A stretch of 64,000 nt of DNA from IMG/VR virus record IMGVR_UViG_3300028603_000041, positions 5,998-69,997 of that record; one strand, written 5' to 3'. Origin of the DNA: a virus (lineage: Duplodnaviria > Caudoviricetes). A program made the translations under genes and the position numbers. Numbering within the stretch: position 1 is the first letter of the stretch; each line of letters starts with the position of its first letter. This document shows, in pieces, positions 10,351-17,274 of the stretch. The notes under the pieces were generated by a model. It saw only the letters and a program-made list of their open reading frames with translations. It made no database searches and was not told the origin of the DNA.

Positions 10351-11355
10351 CTATTCCTCCAGAGCTACAACGTGGACAAACCCGTTCTCCCCCTCAACCT
10401 TCAGAGCGGTATCGCCAACCGTGACTTTCTTCGCCAGCTTTGCCATTTCCTTGAGGAACAGAGGATGGGACTTGAAAGTGAGGTTATCGCCGGTGTACTT
10501 TAGCCTAAGGGTTTGTTCCGCCCAACCATCCGGCCCTTCGCCCCTGACTGTCATGTTGCCTTTGGTTAGCAGTACAGAAACCTCCTGCTCGTACTTGATT
10601 TTGTCATCCGCCATAACCGCAGCCCAATCCAGGGCTTCATTAAGTTCTTTGGGGAAGGATATCTCTACACCATCATTGATGATGAACCCTGAAAGGTCCG
10701 GATACTCACCCTCCACCATACGCACAGCATAAACCACCCCACCTTCATTGCGGAAATGGAGCCAGTGACCGTTTATTCCATCCTCGGTTGGTTTGTAATC
10801 CTTCAGCTGCTCAAGGTGTTTGGCAACGATTTTGATATCCCCTTCCATCTTTAAGGTAAAGCCACCCTGCCTTGTCATGCGGAACTCATCACAGGTTTCC
10901 ATGAATTCATCGGCGATGTGAACGCAGGTGAGGATCGGCAGGTGCCCGGAGCGTGAGGCTGAAAACAACACATTTTGCAGTGCAGGCAGGAACCCTTCCG
11001 GTATATCATTCCACTCCTCAGGCTCCACCAGCTCCTCGTCCAAAGGCAGCTTGATATCAGGGTCCATCCGTATCCCGGCACGGTTCCTGCCTGCTTTCAG
11101 CTTCAGCTCGTTTTCACCCTCAGCTATCTCTACCTCAACATCCGGGCTGAGCTTAGCGAGGAACTGGTAGAGGGGCTCTGCCGGTACTGCCCCAGTGATG
11201 CCGATCTCTAGCGGTGCCATCACGGCAACCTCATCGTTGAAGGTCCAGGCGTGCCCATCCTTGAAGATGATTGAGGTTGCCTGCTCCAGGATTTCCTTAT
11301 TAGCCAAGCCTGGTTTAACGAGTTCCAGTGTTTTCTTTAGTTCTTGTGTTTTCAT
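10351..11355 (-). CDS. dnaN: beta-type sliding clamp
   Basis: 334 aa, three repeated domains, ILTCVHI, ETCDEFRM, EGEYPDL motif typical of DnaN. Confidence 0.75.
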   Translation of the reverse strand: MKTQELKKTLELVKPGLANKEILEQATSIIFKDGHAWTFNDEVAVMAPLEIGITGAVPAEPLYQFLAKLSPDVEVEIAEGENELKLKAGRNRAGIRMDPDIKLPLDEELVEPEEWNDIPEGFLPALQNVLFSASRSGHLPILTCVHIADEFMETCDEFRMTRQGGFTLKMEGDIKIVAKHLEQLKDYKPTEDGINGHWLHFRNEGGVVYAVRMVEGEYPDLSGFIINDGVEISFPKELNEALDWAAVMADDKIKYEQEVSVLLTKGNMTVRGEGPDGWAEQTLRLKYTGDNLTFKSHPLFLKEMAKLAKKVTVGDTALKVEGENGFVHVVALEE

Positions 11356-11524
11356 CTACCCCTCCGATCAGATAGTTAAAACAGTAACCAGATGTGAACT
11401 TCGGGTCCTGGCAATGGTAATAGGAGAACAACCTGCCTCCAGGGCCATAATCCACAATGAATCTCTCTCTCTCAGCTCTTTGGTTGTTTGGCATTCCAGA
11501 TTCTGACGCTATGTAAATCAGCAT
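11315..11524 (-). CDS. DpdA N-terminal-like module F (only intact copy)
   Basis: MLIYIAS..AERERF..GRLFSYYHC; (GA)6 tract at 11462-11473 is in frame. Confidence 0.7.
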   Translation of the reverse strand: MLIYIASESGMPNNQRAERERFIVDYGPGGRLFSYYHCQDPKFTSGYCFNYLIGGVDENTRTKENTGTR

Positions 11525-11690
11525 TTAATTCCCTCATGCAAAACCTGAATATATGTCTGCGAATGAAGAACGGGCCATTTATTTCTCCGTAGGATAATAA
11601 CCTGCCCAAACACAAGCTACTCGATAATCGAGTAGCTTGTCAGCGGTTGTGTGGTAAGTCAGAACCACCACCAGCAAGGTAAATCCTCAC
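11472..11690 (-). pseudogene. DpdA N-terminal-like module E, in-frame TGA
   Basis: GTG 11690 overlaps the dpdA stop; MRIYLAGGGSDLPHNR*QATRLSSSLCLGRLLSYGEI; TGA at 11640-11642. Confidence 0.7.
11612..11640. repeat. perfect 14-bp inverted repeat abutting the TGA of module E
   Basis: ACAAGCTACTCGAT-A-ATCGAGTAGCTTGT. Confidence 0.9.
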
Positions 11691-12595
11691 AGTCCAAACC
11701 CCCGCTTCTTCTTCATCTTGAACGGCCAGGGCCACTCCGGCAGGTTCTTCTCCAGATCCGCATAATAGATGATATTCAGTTCATCCCGTTTGCGGTAATC
11801 ATTGGACAGCCCTGATTCCACCATTCGCTCAACCTTACCCTTACCGGCCTTTTCCCTGACTGCTTTCTTCTCACACCACCGCTCCCCATCTTTCAGCTCG
11901 TAGCTTGGAGGTTTATCGAACCATTCACTCTTACCGAGGGCATACCCCTTTGATGTGAAGTAATCCAGCACCAACTGTTTCACCCTCTTTGGCATCCGGT
12001 CTATGTGATCCGGGTCCACTGCTGAGTTGGGGGAACGGTTGGATACGGTGACTTTGAAGGGTGGTTCCTGGTAGCTGTACTCCCCATTACGCAATGCGGG
12101 GACGTATACCCCGCCAGTTCTGGCGGTAATGATCCAGCTTGTGCTGTCAACACTATACCAGGGGTAACGTAACATGACAGTGAAATTGGTGACAGCAAAT
12201 CCATGTACCTTTATAATGGGCATACCATCGGAATCAGTTAGATATTTAGAAAACAATGTATCCAACCAAGGGGATAGTTTATCCGTGGTGTTGTTTTGGG
12301 CAACTCCTAATGCGATATAGTCGTGCCCTCTATCAATGTATCGACGAAGCCATTTAATATCGCTACCGAAGTGGAACACCGGTAATGGTTCCAACCCAGC
12401 TTTTTCCATAATGAGTTGGTTTCTAAAGGTAGCATCTGGATTTTTTATAACATCCAGATTAGCGTACACCTCTAAATGCCGCTTGTACTTTTTGATAAAT
12501 TCGATGTATTCTTGGATATCGATCTTGATTCCCTGGGTAAAAGCCGAATAAGCTCCGGAGTCTAAGAATATTTTGATTGGTTTTTTACTTTGCAC
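11687..12595 (-). CDS. dpdA: DpdA-like (TGT-fold) DNA 7-deazaguanine transglycosylase, core starting at the DSG strand
   Basis: IFLDSGAYS, ANLDVI, PVFH, YIALG, VHGFA, PWYSVDSTSW; own RBS GGGAGG before GTG; linked to folE/queD/queE. Confidence 0.85.
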   Translation of the reverse strand: MQSKKPIKIFLDSGAYSAFTQGIKIDIQEYIEFIKKYKRHLEVYANLDVIKNPDATFRNQLIMEKAGLEPLPVFHFGSDIKWLRRYIDRGHDYIALGVAQNNTTDKLSPWLDTLFSKYLTDSDGMPIIKVHGFAVTNFTVMLRYPWYSVDSTSWIITARTGGVYVPALRNGEYSYQEPPFKVTVSNRSPNSAVDPDHIDRMPKRVKQLVLDYFTSKGYALGKSEWFDKPPSYELKDGERWCEKKAVREKAGKGKVERMVESGLSNDYRKRDELNIIYYADLEKNLPEWPWPFKMKKKRGFGL

Positions 12596-12731
12596 GATAT
12601 CCTCCCATGCCTCATGTTGGATTTGATTAGGTTGGCAGAAAAAGAAGGAGTTCAGTCTATCGGCTTTGAAATCGCAAATGTTTCTCTCTCTCTACCAGTA
12701 ACGTAGTGCCCGCTAAATACAAGGTTTGCAT
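12596..12731 (-). pseudogene. DpdA N-terminal-like module D, frameshifted in (AG)5
   Basis: MQTLYLAGTTLLVERE/RNICDFKADRLNSFFF; adding one AG at 12684-12693 gives a continuous frame into dpdA. Confidence 0.75.
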
Positions 12732-12844
12732 ATCTTTATCCTGAACCAACCAATGGTAGGACCAAAGCCTTTTGTCCCACAGGACCAATACCTCTCTCTC
12801 TTAGCCCAGCCCCCGCCCGGAACTCCCGCCAGGTAGATTCTCAT
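12713..12844 (-). pseudogene. DpdA N-terminal-like module C, frameshifted in (AG)5
   Basis: MRIYLAGVPGGGWAKRE/VLVLWDKRLWSYHWL; tract 12792-12801, -1 or +2 AG units restore the frame. Confidence 0.75.
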
Positions 12845-13001
12845 CCTCTCCCCCAACATGGAACAGGAAATACTGCATTATCCGATACCGATCTTCTTTC
12901 AGGTAAGCGTAGGAAAACATCCTGTTTGCTCCGACCTATTCAGCAAACCTTTCCTGATCCACCCCATGCCCCGCAACCCAACCGCTGATGTAGATGTTCA
13001 T
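12801..13001 (-). pseudogene. DpdA N-terminal-like module B, in-frame TAG
   Basis: MNIYISGWVAGHGVDQERFAE*VGANRMFSYAYL; TAG at 12936-12938. Confidence 0.7.
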
Positions 13002-13156
13002 TCCTTTTCTCGATTCTGCAGGTACAAATCCTTGTTGCCTCTTTTGTTATCGACTGCAAGGAAGAAATAGGACAAGAGCCGGCATTCGTACTGTTGAGAA
13101 TCAAGTACCTCTTTCTGCACTTTCTCTAACCAAGTGCTGAGATATTATATCTTCAT
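12998..13156 (-). pseudogene. DpdA N-terminal-like module A, in-frame TAA at codon 4
   Basis: ATG overlaps the folE stop; MKI*YLSTWLEKVQKEVLDSQQYECRLLSYFFL; TAA at 13145-13147 looks like a 3-nt insertion. Confidence 0.7.
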
Positions 13157-13713
13157 GCCCTAGCCCATAGTGTCATGAGTTCATTCCTGACAGCAACCCC
13201 GGCATTGGAATGCTCAAGGAATACTCCTTTGAGGCTGCTGTACCCCATCATGGAGCCCTGTTTCTTAACCCCGCGGCAAGCAATGCAAAGGTGCTTGGCC
13301 TCAATCAGACACGCAGCTCCAACCGGATTCAAATACTGCATCAGGGCTTCTGTAACCTGCTCCCCGATCCGTTCCTGAATCTGCAATCTCCTGGTGTAGA
13401 TATCCAGCAACCTTGCAAGCTTCGATACTCCGATCACCCTACCGTTTGGGATGTAAGCGATCATTGCAGTGCCCCAAAACGGCAGCATATGGTGTTCACA
13501 GGTGCTGTAAAATTCGACCCCTTTCAGGTAGATCAATCCCTTGGCTCCATCCCCATCAAAGTCTTTGAAAACGTCCTCCGGCTTTTGCTTGTAGCCGGCA
13601 AACATTTCATCCCATGAGCGAACCACCCTGGAAGGAGTTTCGAGCAGTCCTTCCCTGGTCGGGTCCTCACCGATATAGCGCAGAAGGCTTACAATATGTT
13701 CCTCGATCTTCAT
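13153..13713 (-). CDS. folE: GTP cyclohydrolase I
   Basis: GEDPTREGLLETPSRV, STCEHHMLPF, GVSKLARL, RRLQIQER, HLCIACRGV. Confidence 0.97.
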   Translation of the reverse strand: MKIEEHIVSLLRYIGEDPTREGLLETPSRVVRSWDEMFAGYKQKPEDVFKDFDGDGAKGLIYLKGVEFYSTCEHHMLPFWGTAMIAYIPNGRVIGVSKLARLLDIYTRRLQIQERIGEQVTEALMQYLNPVGAACLIEAKHLCIACRGVKKQGSMMGYSSLKGVFLEHSNAGVAVRNELMTLWARA

Positions 13714-13746: not shown

Positions 13747-14622
13747 TCAACGTCCTCTTTTAGAAAACAGACCACGTTTTGGTAGGGGTTTCGACGCTAT
13801 AATTGCTATTTCTGTGGCTACCTCTGGGAACAATATCGGAAAGAAGGACATTAACCATTCATTTGGTAGATATTCGGAAAAGCGCTGATAAAGTTCCTTG
13901 ATGGTAACGTTGTTCTGTTCTTTTTCTATGTAATCGTCAAAATCCTTACGCTTACTAACCAACCCAAATACATTTAGTAGCTCAAACCCTATTTCTTTTA
14001 GTGCGGCGGACAATTCGTCCAAATCCCACTCATATAAATGGGCTTTGTACTGCGTATCGTATGGATCTTTCTTTTCCCGAGTATTTGGGCAAGATATGAA
14101 CAGGATCTTACCTGGTTTGAGAACATTGTGACAGGCTTGCAAAGATTTATACCCAGCTTCTTTTTGCATATGCTCGATGGCCGATGTGTATACAATCAGA
14201 TCAAACTTTTTTTGTAGGTGTTGGTCCATTTCTTCTGCGGAACAAAGAACGTGTTTGATTGGAAATGAGTAATACTCGTCGAGATTTTCGATGGTTTTGA
14301 TACCGCTGCGACGTAATTGTTCCTTAATGTTTTTTTCAGAAATATCAACGCCGGTGTACCCAGCAATGTCCCGTTTATACCAGCGTATCAGAGGGAGCAG
14401 TAAACCCCTTCCACAACAGACGTCTAACACCTGATCGTCTTTCCTCATCATGGTAACAACCTTATGGTGTTGGATGTAATTCATGACGTCCAGCGAACTA
14501 AAAAATCCATCTGCGAACTGTCTGTAAAAGTTTCGCATTTGGTAGGTAGTACAATATATTTCCCTTGGGTTCATATCATCTTCGACCCTGAAAACGATCT
14601 TTTTACCATCGTACTCTTTCAT
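13747..14622 (-). CDS. class I SAM-dependent methyltransferase in the deazaguanine cassette
   Basis: VLDVCCGRG, GVDIS, TSAIEHM, LKPGKILFISCPN. Confidence 0.85.
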   Translation of the reverse strand: MKEYDGKKIVFRVEDDMNPREIYCTTYQMRNFYRQFADGFFSSLDVMNYIQHHKVVTMMRKDDQVLDVCCGRGLLLPLIRWYKRDIAGYTGVDISEKNIKEQLRRSGIKTIENLDEYYSFPIKHVLCSAEEMDQHLQKKFDLIVYTSAIEHMQKEAGYKSLQACHNVLKPGKILFISCPNTREKKDPYDTQYKAHLYEWDLDELSAALKEIGFELLNVFGLVSKRKDFDDYIEKEQNNVTIKELYQRFSEYLPNEWLMSFFPILFPEVATEIAIIASKPLPKRGLFSKRGR

Positions 14623-16135: not shown

Positions 16136-16831
16136 TTAAGCCACCCCGATCAGTTTATGTAGCTGGAGGTTCAAGGTGATCGGCAGCTTGCTTTCTATGA
16201 TCCTTTTTGCCAATGTTTCCAGATCAATAACTATACCATTCGGGAATGATCTGTATCCGAATGCTCCGAGAGGCTTGTTCATAATCGGCGATATGGTAAG
16301 CCCAATCCAGGGCCAGGTCTTCAGCATTTCAGCAGCCTGCTCAAAGGCTCTATCCACATCTGCCCAGGAAGCCACAACAAATTTTACATAACACCCGTTA
16401 ATCCCGAGATCACCGGGGTAGAAGGTGTATGGAACTCTTCCCATAGCATCCATACCCTTGCAGTCCACAACCCAGTAATCGACCATGTACTGGGTGCCGA
16501 TTGGTAGGGTTCCATTGGTTTCAACCTGGATTTGTACCATCGGGTCACGCTTTTTCAGCTTGAAAATGAGCTCCTTTAATGCCTCTTTCTGTAGCAGTGG
16601 CTCCCCACCTGTAATGAGGATCTGTTCTCTGCCGTACTCCAGCAGCCTGCCCGCCAGCATATCAACATTCCATTCTTCCCCAGCCATAGGGTCACAAGCC
16701 CATTCGGTGTCACAGAACGGGCAGTGAAGAAAGCACCCAGCTAGACGGAGGAACAAGGTCGGAGAGCCCTGCTGGAACCCGCCTACCTCTCCGCTCAAGC
16801 TCTCGAATATTTCAGCAACCTGGATTTTCAT
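16136..16831 (-). CDS. queE: 7-carboxy-7-deazaguanine synthase (radical SAM)
   Basis: EIFESLSGE, FLRLAGCFLHCPFCDT, ITGGEPLLQ, VETNGT, LQLHK. Confidence 0.95.
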   Translation of the reverse strand: MKIQVAEIFESLSGEVGGFQQGSPTLFLRLAGCFLHCPFCDTEWACDPMAGEEWNVDMLAGRLLEYGREQILITGGEPLLQKEALKELIFKLKKRDPMVQIQVETNGTLPIGTQYMVDYWVVDCKGMDAMGRVPYTFYPGDLGINGCYVKFVVASWADVDRAFEQAAEMLKTWPWIGLTISPIMNKPLGAFGYRSFPNGIVIDLETLAKRIIESKLPITLNLQLHKLIGVA

Positions 16832-17274
16832 TTAGTTCTCCCATCTATGAAGACGTGAGCTTTGTATTCTGCCCAACTGTCTGGTGTTTCAGTCACCCGC
16901 AACCGTTCCAGCCTGCATCCATCCGGCAGAGCTGCTTCAATGTTTTGTGTCAGCCATCCGCATATTGTTTCCGCAGTAGCAGGTCTGTAGTAAGATCCAT
17001 CTGTTTCTTTACGGAACCTACCAGCACAGAAAGCCAGAGGACCGGTAACAAAGAACTCAGTCAGATCCTTATGATCTAGCTCCAACAATAACCCATTCAC
17101 AATAGCTTTGAGTTTACTGAAATCGATCACCATAGTTGGATAACCGTTCTCATCCCAGCCTGCGATCTCTACTTCTACCTCAGCGTTATGGCCGTGAAAA
17201 TCAGCGCATTTCCCGTCATAACCAGGCAACCTGTGCCCGTAACAAAAGCTGAATTTCTTGGTTACTGTGATCAT
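16828..17274 (-). CDS. queD: 6-carboxytetrahydropterin synthase
   Basis: FCYGHRL, CADFHGHN, IDFSKLK, LDHKDL, TAETI, VTETPDSWA. Confidence 0.95.
   Translation of the reverse strand: MITVTKKFSFCYGHRLPGYDGKCADFHGHNAEVEVEIAGWDENGYPTMVIDFSKLKAIVNGLLLELDHKDLTEFFVTGPLAFCAGRFRKETDGSYYRPATAETICGWLTQNIEAALPDGCRLERLRVTETPDSWAEYKAHVFIDGRTK

What the first reader, a model, noticed from the sequence alone, without database searches (positions are those of the whole stretch)
11462..12801. Three (AG)n microsatellites encoding ERER in the modules: slippage ON/OFF switches
Seen: (AG)5 at 12792-12801 (module C, out of frame), (AG)5 at 12684-12693 (module D, out of frame) and (GA)6 at 11462-11473 (module F, in frame). 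One extra AG in D gives a continuous ORF MQTLYLAG..VERERNICDFKADRLNSFFF..IVQSKKPIKIFLDSG, i.e. a full-length DpdA. Losing one AG in C puts C in frame with the start of D. Established: dinucleotide slippage drives phase variation of methyltransferases (phasevarions). Inference: the phage population toggles between fused full-length and split DpdA forms.
Basis: partly seen in the sequence, partly recalled or inferred. Interest (0 to 1): 0.75.

Follow-up and report, generated by a model that had tools for sequence, protein, structure and literature searches.

The report
Slippery AG repeats toggle phage DpdA
Three short AG repeats in a phage gene cluster for a DNA-modifying enzyme (DpdA) are real slippage-prone tracts: a 99.9%-identical phage from another sample has one extra AG that fuses a small N-terminal piece to the enzyme core, so the phage population holds both split and full-length forms.

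Summary
Observation confirmed. The three tracts, (AG)5 at 12792-12801, (AG)5A at 12683-12693 and (GA)6 at 11462-11473 on the minus strand, are the three longest dinucleotide repeats in the 64 kb window. All lie within 1.3 kb around a DpdA-type DNA transglycosylase gene.

Each tract encodes an R-E-R-E stretch in the first helix of a ~45-aa module (M.IYLAG ... RERE ... RL.SYYH). Structure comparison shows the module is the first two beta/alpha units of the TGT/DpdA barrel. The 302-aa core (11687-12595) is strands 3 to 8.

Interpretation supported.
- Contigs 99.93-99.94% identical over 7 kb carry one extra AG at tract D, the only indel.
- A 79%-identical relative has (AG)7 at tracts C and D.
- In 172 related loci, about 43% of tract-bearing modules are out of frame at the tract, yet both halves stay conserved (pN much lower than pS).
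- R and E in the motif use AGA and GAG about 80% of the time, against 29% and 34% in the cores.
- Another lineage toggles the same position with a heptanucleotide repeat.

Not shown: switching rate, reversibility, adaptive value, and whether free modules complement the core.

Caveat: in this phage three other modules carry nonsense codons, and tract C is out of frame in all four near-identical contigs.

An earlier first-reader note on this same stretch describes the split DpdA and its module library.

The parts
12792..12801 (-). Tract C: (AG)5 in the RERE helix codons of module C. Out of frame here; in frame as (AG)7 in relative L010.
12683..12693 (-). Tract D: (AG)5A. Out of frame here and in L178. 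(AG)6 in the 99.9%-identical L176/L177 gives the fused 348-aa DpdA. (AG)7 in L010 is out of frame in the other direction.
11462..11473 (-). Tract F: (GA)6, in frame, within the stand-alone module F ORF.
11687..12595 (-). DpdA core, 302 aa, barrel strands 3-8. It has its own GTG start preceded by GGGAGG and carries the invariant LDSG and SVDSTSW motifs.
12596..12682 (-). Second half of module D (NICDF..RLNSFFF..EDI), in the core frame, with no start codon of its own. Under purifying selection (pS 0.67, pN 0.04 against L010).
12657..12731 (-). Module D first half: ATG at 12731 (MQTLYLAGTTLLVERE). In the (AG)5 state it is a 24-codon stub ending at TAG 12657-12659.
12732..12859 (-). Module C. First half runs from ATG 12844 (MRIYLAGVPGGGWAKRER; an upstream ATG lies at 12859). 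Second half is at 12732-12785 (VLWDKRLWSYHWLVQDKD), in the frame of the D start. The two halves are separated by the frameshift at tract C.
12837..13001 (-). Module A/B (MNIYISGWVAGH..ERFAE / ..RMFSYAYL). It has an in-frame TAG at 12936-12938. Position 12937 is polymorphic: TAG in the window and L178, TGG in L176/L177, where the 66-aa ORF is intact.
13001..13156 (-). Module 0 (..YLSTW..RLLSYFFLAVD..). Its start region is degenerate (MKI then TAA) and overlaps the FolE stop codon. The rest is conserved (pS 0.63, pN 0.05 against L010).
11580..11690 (-). Module E. Its GTG start overlaps the core stop (GTGA). It has an in-frame TGA at 11640-11642 and no AG tract. The relative L010 has an intact 71-aa version with (GA)6.
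11315..11524 (-). Module F: an intact stand-alone 69-aa ORF (MLIYIASESG..AERERF..RLFSYYH) that overlaps the start of the clamp-like gene (10351-11355).

Best explanation
The three (AG)n tracts are hypermutable simple-sequence repeats inside small coding modules that supply the N-terminal quarter of a phage DpdA, a DNA 7-deazaguanine transglycosylase. That quarter is beta1-alpha1-beta2-alpha2 of the TGT-type barrel. Each tract encodes the R-E-R-E turns of helix alpha1, and because (AG)n reads R-E in every frame the motif survives slippage. Slipped-strand mispairing during phage DNA replication adds or removes AG units. This moves the second half of a module (the beta2 strand RL.SYYH) in or out of frame with its first half (M.IYLAG). 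At tract D, (AG)6 gives a fused 348-aa full-length enzyme. (AG)5, the window's state, gives a 24-codon stub plus the 302-aa core translated from its own GTG and ribosome-binding site. The phage population therefore holds heritable, probably reversible, split and fused forms. Shown: the tracts, the frames, the natural (AG)5 and (AG)6 alleles, family-wide tract-length variation with conserved halves, codon bias towards the repeat, and the module's place in the barrel. Inferred: that switching is fast and reversible, that it is selected (a contingency locus), that the core without a cis module works with a stand-alone module such as F in trans, and that the module choice changes activity or specificity.
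For: (1) The tracts are real and non-random: 3 against 0.23 expected, and they are the 3 longest dinucleotide repeats in the window.
(2) Natural alleles exist. L178 carries the window allele.
(3) L010 (79% aa identity in the core) has (AG)7 at C (in frame) and (AG)7 at D (out of frame the other way).
(4) Family scale. 172 loci hold 151 AG tracts of 9 nt or more on the coding strand, against 4 CT tracts. Of 105 tract-bearing modules with both halves found, 60 are in frame and 45 are shifted at the tract. In-frame lengths peak at 12-13 nt and shifted ones at 10-11 and 14 or more. The direction of the shift fits one-unit loss or gain (p = 0.008). Modules with a tract of 8 nt or more are shifted 5.3 times more often than those without (44 of 103 against 24 of 194; odds ratio 5.3, p = 1e-8).
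(5) Shifted modules are not decayed. Profile scores of their halves equal those of intact modules (about 19 bits each; p = 0.76 and 0.59). pN is much lower than pS in every half-module between the window and L010. Only 4 nonsense cases were found against at least 51 shifted among 432 unique modules.
(6) Codon bias. In RER/ERE motifs R is AGA in 80% and E is GAG in 81%, against 29% and 34% in the cores.
(7) Convergence. In another lineage a (CAGAAGA) repeat at the same helix has 4 copies (358-aa fused form) or 3 copies (300-aa split form), with identical flanks.
(8) Structure. In the AF2 model of long form P0008 (pLDDT 86.8) the module forms strand-helix-strand-helix before the LDSG strand. The whole model aligns from residue 1 to Z. 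mobilis TGT residues 39-363 and to DpdA 7UI4 (Z 18). Cultured Queuovirinae DpdAs carry the same module in cis.
Against: No read-level data were available, so within-population heterogeneity, switching rate and reversibility are unmeasured. In this phage tract C is (AG)5 and tract F is (GA)6 in all four near-identical contigs. Three other modules (0, A/B, E) carry nonsense codons that slippage cannot reverse, which looks like partial decay of a redundant array. The core has its own start, so the phenotypic effect of the toggle is unknown. Only about a third of modules in the family carry a tract. Some long/short length differences within 90% protein clusters come from gene-caller start choices, not real frameshifts. 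In the AF2 model the module has lower confidence (pLDDT 55-72) than the core.
Confidence: 0.8

Rival explanations
1. Neutral decay of redundant modules. The modules upstream of the core are dispensable leftovers, because the core has its own start and module F is intact. The AG tracts are simply the most mutable sites, where inactivating frameshifts land first. There is no selected switch.
For: The window has nonsense codons in modules 0, A/B and E. Tract C is out of frame in all four near-identical contigs. Among core-adjacent tract-bearing modules, 16 are shifted against 10 in frame, close to the two-thirds expected for a freely drifting tract length. The core has a GTG start with GGGAGG.
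Against: pN is much lower than pS in every half-module, including those with stops or shifts. Halves of shifted modules score like intact ones. Nonsense cases are rare: 4 of 432. The in-frame allele exists in a 99.9%-identical phage. AGA and GAG codons are kept against the local codon preference. A different repeat type sits at the same position in another lineage.
Confidence: 0.13
2. Recoding. Out-of-frame tracts are read through by programmed ribosomal frameshifting on the AGA/GAG run, or by RNA polymerase stuttering. Fused protein would then be made from alleles that look 'off', and the DNA-level variation would be secondary.
For: 43% of tract-bearing modules are out of frame in consensus sequences, yet their downstream halves are conserved. 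In one group of close relatives all four alleles (11, 17, 17 and 19 nt) are out of frame, and the substitutions downstream are synonymous.
Against: Close relatives would need shifts in opposite directions: +1 for the window and -1 for L010 at tract D. Both shift directions are common. No RNA structure stronger than shuffled controls lies downstream of the three tracts (z = +1.5, 0.0 and -0.8). DNA-level length polymorphism is directly seen. This reading is not exclusive of the main one.
Confidence: 0.05
3. Sequencing or assembly artefact at short tandem repeats.
For: Dinucleotide repeats are error-prone on some platforms, and no reads were available here.
Against: The (AG)6 allele is linked to another substitution (TAG to TGG at 12937) and appears in two records. 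The (AG)5 allele appears in the window and in L178. Identical alleles recur in separate assemblies of other lineages. The rest of the region has intact long ORFs.
Confidence: 0.02

Closest known systems
Phase-variable DNA methyltransferases (phasevarions; simple-sequence repeats in mod/hsd genes of Haemophilus, Neisseria, Helicobacter and Campylobacter; e.g. PMC7383803, PMC4889913)
   Same: A simple-sequence repeat lies inside the coding region of a DNA-modifying enzyme. Changes in unit number shift the frame and create heritable subpopulations.
   Different: Here the host is a phage genome, not a bacterium. The enzyme is a base-exchanging transglycosylase, not a methyltransferase. The shift does not truncate the catalytic body. 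It fuses or unfuses a 45-aa barrel fragment, and several alternative fragments are present. No regulon effect is implied.
Hypermutable polyG tracts of Campylobacter phages (Sorensen et al. 2021, Cell Rep 35:109214, seen as a reference in PMC10877375)
   Same: Phage-encoded repeats that slip and give phenotypically mixed phage populations.
   Different: Those are homopolymers in receptor-binding genes. These are dinucleotide repeats (heptanucleotide in one lineage) in a DNA-modification gene.
DpdA1 of cultured Queuovirinae (Escherichia phage GottfriedDienst bas21_0039, Pseudomonas phage NP1; family described in PMC6884629 and PMC10516641)
   Same: Same enzyme family (35-41% identity to the core). 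Same gene order: FolE, small ORF, DpdA, small ORFs, clamp, polymerase. The same N-terminal module is present in cis (MNVFMAAVY..ILESYHYV..KVFLDSGAFSA).
   Different: In the two cultured phages inspected the module is a fixed part of one ORF, with no AG tract and no array of alternative modules. The papers read do not mention repeats, frameshifts or split forms.
tRNA-guanine transglycosylase (TGT) and bacterial DpdA (PDB 7UI4)
   Same: Same barrel fold (Z 18). The module aligns with the first two beta/alpha units and LDSG aligns with the catalytic-Asp strand. The correspondence of LGNTYH to L.SYYH is from memory of TGT sequences.
   Different: No solved relative is known to be encoded in pieces or with alternative N-terminal units.

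Membership tests
Simple-sequence-repeat contingency locus (phase-variable gene) | Tandem repeat inside the reading frame, over-represented relative to chance | tested here: met
   3 tracts against 0.23 expected in the window. 151 AG against 4 CT tracts in 816 kb of related loci.
Simple-sequence-repeat contingency locus (phase-variable gene) | Repeat number differs between otherwise near-identical genomes | tested here: met
   Tract D is (AG)5 or (AG)6, and this is the only indel in 7,047 nt at 99.93-99.94% identity. 17-nt against 19-nt alleles occur in another group. (CAGAAGA)3 against (CAGAAGA)4 occur with identical flanks.
Simple-sequence-repeat contingency locus (phase-variable gene) | A change in unit number changes the protein made | tested here: met
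   302-aa core plus a stub against the 348-aa fusion P0122.
Simple-sequence-repeat contingency locus (phase-variable gene) | High-frequency, reversible switching within a clonal population | not testable with these tools
   No reads and no cultured phage are available. Only consensus contigs were compared.
DpdA / TGT superfamily (DNA 7-deazaguanine transglycosylase) | TGT-type (beta/alpha)8 barrel | tested here: met
   AF2 model of the long form has pLDDT 86.8. VIA-align gives Z 18.1 to DpdA 7UI4, archaeosine TGT and human TGT, covering the model from residue 1.
DpdA / TGT superfamily (DNA 7-deazaguanine transglycosylase) | Sequence-profile membership | tested here: met
   phrog_887 'queuine tRNA-ribosyltransferase' at E = 3e-50. 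tblastn gives 35-41% identity to annotated phage DpdA. Pfam gave no hit for the core at E <= 0.1, and the PDB profile hit to 7UI4 is weak (E = 0.5).
DpdA / TGT superfamily (DNA 7-deazaguanine transglycosylase) | Context with 7-deazaguanine precursor genes | tested here: met
   FolE lies at 13153-13713. ORFs in the QueE and QueD positions lie at 16136-17274; they were read from the ORF list only and were not profile-tested. QueC is absent from the genome.
DpdA / TGT superfamily (DNA 7-deazaguanine transglycosylase) | Base-exchange activity on DNA | not testable with these tools
   This needs biochemistry or nucleoside mass spectrometry.
Phasevarion (phase-variable methyltransferase controlling a regulon) | The switching enzyme is a DNA methyltransferase whose state changes host gene expression | tested here: not met
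   The enzyme is a transglycosylase of a phage. It works like a phasevarion switch but is not a member.

The most novel reading that the evidence does not exclude
The modules are alternative, interchangeable beta1-beta2 cassettes of a split DpdA barrel. Repeat slippage decides which cassette is fused in cis, or leaves the core free to pair with a stand-alone cassette in trans. One phage lineage would then stochastically produce DpdA variants that differ in target sequence context, substrate or extent of DNA modification. That would be a bet-hedging modification switch against restriction and modification-dependent defences.
Probability: 0.25. Interest if true: 0.92.

Novelty: new variant of a known kind. 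Interest (0 to 1): 0.8.

Why it matters
Repeat-driven phase variation is a classic bacterial strategy. In phages it is known only for polyG tracts in receptor-binding genes. Here it acts on the enzyme that hypermodifies phage DNA, and in an unusual way: it fuses or unfuses a structural quarter of a TIM barrel that is also present as several alternative small ORFs. The pattern is not a one-off. It recurs across at least a hundred tract-bearing modules in environmental phages, and it has arisen with a different repeat unit at the same position. If module choice affects activity or specificity, phage DNA modification would be a stochastic, heritable population trait. This bears on how phages escape restriction and on reading modification motifs from metagenomes. 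It also warns annotators that 'short' DpdA genes and the tiny ORFs around them belong together.

Tried and rejected
- Nucleotide search of the cultured-phage collection with the locus found nothing. The closest cultured DpdAs are below 60% identity.
- Pfam gave no family for the core or the modules.
- Stop-codon recoding was considered as an explanation for the in-frame TAA, TAG and TGA in modules 0, A/B and E. It was rejected because all three stop codons end long ORFs in the genome, and the TAG is a TAG/TGG polymorphism.
- A frameshift-stimulating RNA structure downstream of the tracts was looked for. None was stronger than shuffled controls.
- Promoter and terminator scans showed nothing above chance.
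- Clustering tracts by flank identity gave few close pairs: 5 clusters, of which 3 were length-polymorphic.
- Length differences within 90% protein clusters looked like widespread toggling, but at least one cluster reflects a gene-caller start choice. This count is not used as evidence.
- Complex prediction (core plus stand-alone module F) was requested several times.
- The module profile search also hit a 2,519-aa protein with 41 stretches. It was not examined.
Full report
**1. What is in the sequence**

On the minus strand, the window carries an operon-like run:
- FolE (13153-13713).
- A series of small overlapping ORFs.
- A 302-aa ORF (11687-12595).
- Two more small ORFs.
- A clamp-like gene (10351-11355).

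- Tract C is (AG)5 at 12792-12801.
- Tract D is an 11-nt AG run at 12683-12693.
- Tract F is (GA)6 at 11462-11473.

They are the three longest dinucleotide repeats of the whole 64 kb; nothing else exceeds 4 units. AGAGAGAGAG occurs 3 times against 0.23 expected, and no shuffle out of 100 reaches 3.

The window is 64,000 nt of a 69,997-nt virus record whose first 30 nt recur 160 nt from its end. The genome uses all three stop codons, and modules occur only at this locus.

**2. What the tracts sit in**

The 302-aa ORF is a phage DpdA:
- It matches phrog_887 at E = 3e-50.
- It is 35-41% identical to annotated DpdA of Queuovirinae.

Its homologs come in two lengths, about 300 aa and about 350 aa. 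The extra 50 residues are an N-terminal module with the pattern M.IYLAG, then often (K)RERE, then RL.SYYH.

Cultured-phage DpdAs (Escherichia phage GottfriedDienst, Pseudomonas phage NP1) carry the same module as a fixed part of the protein.

An AlphaFold model of a long form (P0008, 69% identical in the core, mean pLDDT 86.8) gives this order:
- Strand 3-7.
- Helix 13-22, which is the RERE helix.
- Strand 26-29.
- Helix 40-48.
- The LDSG strand 55-58.

The whole model, from residue 1, aligns with Z. mobilis TGT residues 39-363 and with bacterial DpdA 7UI4 at Z about 18. The module is therefore the first two beta/alpha units of the barrel, and the 302-aa core is the remaining six. Confidence for the module part of the model is lower (pLDDT 55-72).

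**3. The array in the window**

Reading the minus strand:
- **Module 0** (13001-13156). The start is degenerate, with a TAA at codon 4.
- **Module A/B** (12837-13001). It has an in-frame TAG at 12936-12938.
- **Module C.** The start is at 12844. The frame is broken at tract C. The second half, at 12732-12785, is in frame with the start of D.
- **Module D.** The ATG is at 12731. The frame is broken at tract D. The second half, at 12596-12682, runs in the core frame straight into the core.
- **Core.** It has its own GTG at 12595, preceded by GGGAGG.
- **Module E.** The GTG start overlaps the core stop. There is an in-frame TGA.
- **Module F** (11315-11524). An intact 69-aa ORF with tract F in frame.

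At both C and D the downstream frame opens exactly at the tract, with a TAA or TAG immediately 5' of it. Because (AG)n reads R-E in every frame, the motif survives slippage.

**4. Direct test of the toggle**

The 90%-identity cluster of the window's core holds two more proteins:
- P0121, 302 aa, from a 69,955-nt contig.
- P0122, 348 aa.

Their DNA gives three loci:
- L178 matches the window genome over 6,909 nt with 1 mismatch and no gap.
- L176 matches over 7,047 nt with 3 mismatches and one 2-nt gap.
- L177 matches over 7,047 nt with 2 mismatches and one 2-nt gap.

That single gap is one extra AG at tract D. In the 2.5-kb stretch from FolE to the clamp gene, the only other difference is TAG versus TGG at 12937, in module A/B.

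P0122 begins MQTLYLAGTTLLVERERNICDFKADRLNSFFF... and continues into a core 100% identical to the window's. Tracts C and F have the same length in all four sequences.

**5. More distant relatives**

L010 (79% aa identity in the core) has the same array. Its tract C is (AG)7 and in frame. Its tract D is (AG)7 and out of frame in the opposite direction to the window.

Between the window and L010, every half-module shows pS far above pN in its own frame, and not in the other two frames. For example:
- Second half of D: pS 0.67, pN 0.04.
- Module 0: pS 0.63, pN 0.05.

This holds although the second half of D has no start codon of its own in either genome.

**6. Family scale**

I fetched 172 loci with this core from viral and metagenome contigs.
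- **Strand bias.** AG tracts of 9 nt or more number 151 on the coding strand, against 4 CT, 20 AT and 2 GT.
- **Frame state.** Anchoring on tracts, 105 unique tracts have a recognisable first half upstream and second half downstream. Of these, 60 are in one frame and 45 are shifted at the tract.
- **Length pattern.** In-frame lengths peak at 12-13 nt. Shifted ones are at 10-11 nt, mostly the shift expected from losing one unit, and at 14 nt or more, mostly the shift expected from gaining one (p = 0.008).
- **Tract-independent scan.** This gives 297 unique modules, with only 5 hits on the reverse strand as a control. Modules with a tract of 8 nt or more are shifted in 44 of 103 cases; those without are shifted in 24 of 194 (p = 1e-8).
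- **Profile-based scan.** This gives 432 unique modules: 306 intact, at least 51 shifted and 4 with nonsense codons.
- **No decay.** Halves of shifted modules fit the profile as well as those of intact modules.
- **Codon use.** In RER/ERE motifs R is AGA in 80% and E is GAG in 81%. In the cores AGA is 29% and GAG is 34%.

**7. Convergence**

In the lineage of P0006, the same helix carries a heptanucleotide repeat. Flanks are 100% identical over the compared stretch.
- (CAGAAGA)4 gives a 358-aa fused form, seen on 23 contigs.
- (CAGAAGA)3 gives a 300-aa split form.

A third lineage seems to shift in an A-rich linker between module and core. This was not confirmed at the DNA level for the long form.

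**8. Architecture**

Of 74 unique loci with at least 1.5 kb on both sides of the core:
- The median number of modules is 3, with a range of 0 to 8.
- 28 loci have an intact fused module.
- Of the 46 without one, 42 have at least one intact stand-alone module.

Stand-alone module ORFs have a median length of 59 aa. A profile of them finds 475 representatives at E <= 1e-3, nearly all 45-90 aa long.

This fits a split enzyme completed in trans, but it is inference.

**9. Weighing the explanations**

The evidence supports slippage-driven toggling between fused and split DpdA forms in natural populations.
- **Pure decay.** The conserved halves, the rarity of nonsense codons, the repeat-favouring codon use and the convergent heptamer repeat argue against it. 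Even so, this particular phage carries three modules with nonsense codons, and its tract C is out of frame in all four near-identical contigs. Part of its array may be eroding.
- **Programmed recoding.** It is not needed. It is disfavoured because opposite shift directions would be required in close relatives, and no downstream RNA structure stands out.
- **Artefact.** It is unlikely because alleles recur in separate records and the (AG)6 allele is linked to a SNP.

**10. Literature**

The DpdA papers read describe the subfamilies bDpdA and DpdA1 to DpdA4. They do not mention repeats, frameshifts, N-terminal modules or split forms. No paper in the library links DpdA with phase variation in this sense.

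Phage repeat-driven variation is known for polyG tracts in Campylobacter phages (the reference was seen). Bacterial phase-variable methyltransferases are the closest mechanistic analogue.

**Verdict**

- It is a new variant of a known kind of switch, in a new place and with an unusual consequence.
- Rate, reversibility, selective value and the role of the modules remain to be shown.

Noticed in passing
window 12937 (minus-strand codon 12936-12938): The in-frame stop of module A/B is a single-base polymorphism. It is TAG in the window and L178, and TGG (Trp) in the 99.9%-identical L176/L177, where the 66-aa module ORF is intact. L010 has GAG at this codon.
   Followed up: partly
L182:1101-1125, L183, L184-L186:668-700: A heptanucleotide repeat (CAGAAGA) sits in the alpha1 codons of another lineage's module. 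Four copies give a 358-aa fused DpdA and three copies a 300-aa split form, with identical flanks. This is an independent repeat type at the same position.
   Followed up: yes
L181:1160-1200: In the cluster of P0029 (357 aa) and P0315 (298 aa), module and core are out of frame around an A-rich stretch (..AAATTAAAAAAACTGG..) in the linker. This may be a homopolymer slip. The DNA of the long form was not fetched.
   Followed up: partly
window 11612-11642: A 14-bp perfect inverted repeat (..CAAGCTACTCGAT / ATCGAGTAGCTTG..) starts at the in-frame TGA of module E, where other modules have the RERE tract. It was not scored as a terminator by the simple scan.
   Followed up: no
whole genome G000 (69,997 nt): No QueC (PF06508) match anywhere in the genome, although FolE is present and ORFs in the QueE and QueD positions were read from the ORF list. 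A SAM methyltransferase (13747-14622) sits next to FolE. Relatives L011 and L013 do encode QueC.
   Followed up: partly
L179:1040-1210, L180: Some 'short' DpdA calls in public protein sets come from gene-caller start choices. The upstream module is open and in frame, so length differences within protein clusters overstate real toggling.
   Followed up: yes
P0123 (2,519 aa): The best hit of the module profile search is a 2,519-aa protein with 41 matched stretches. It is probably a repeat or low-complexity match. It was not examined.
   Followed up: no
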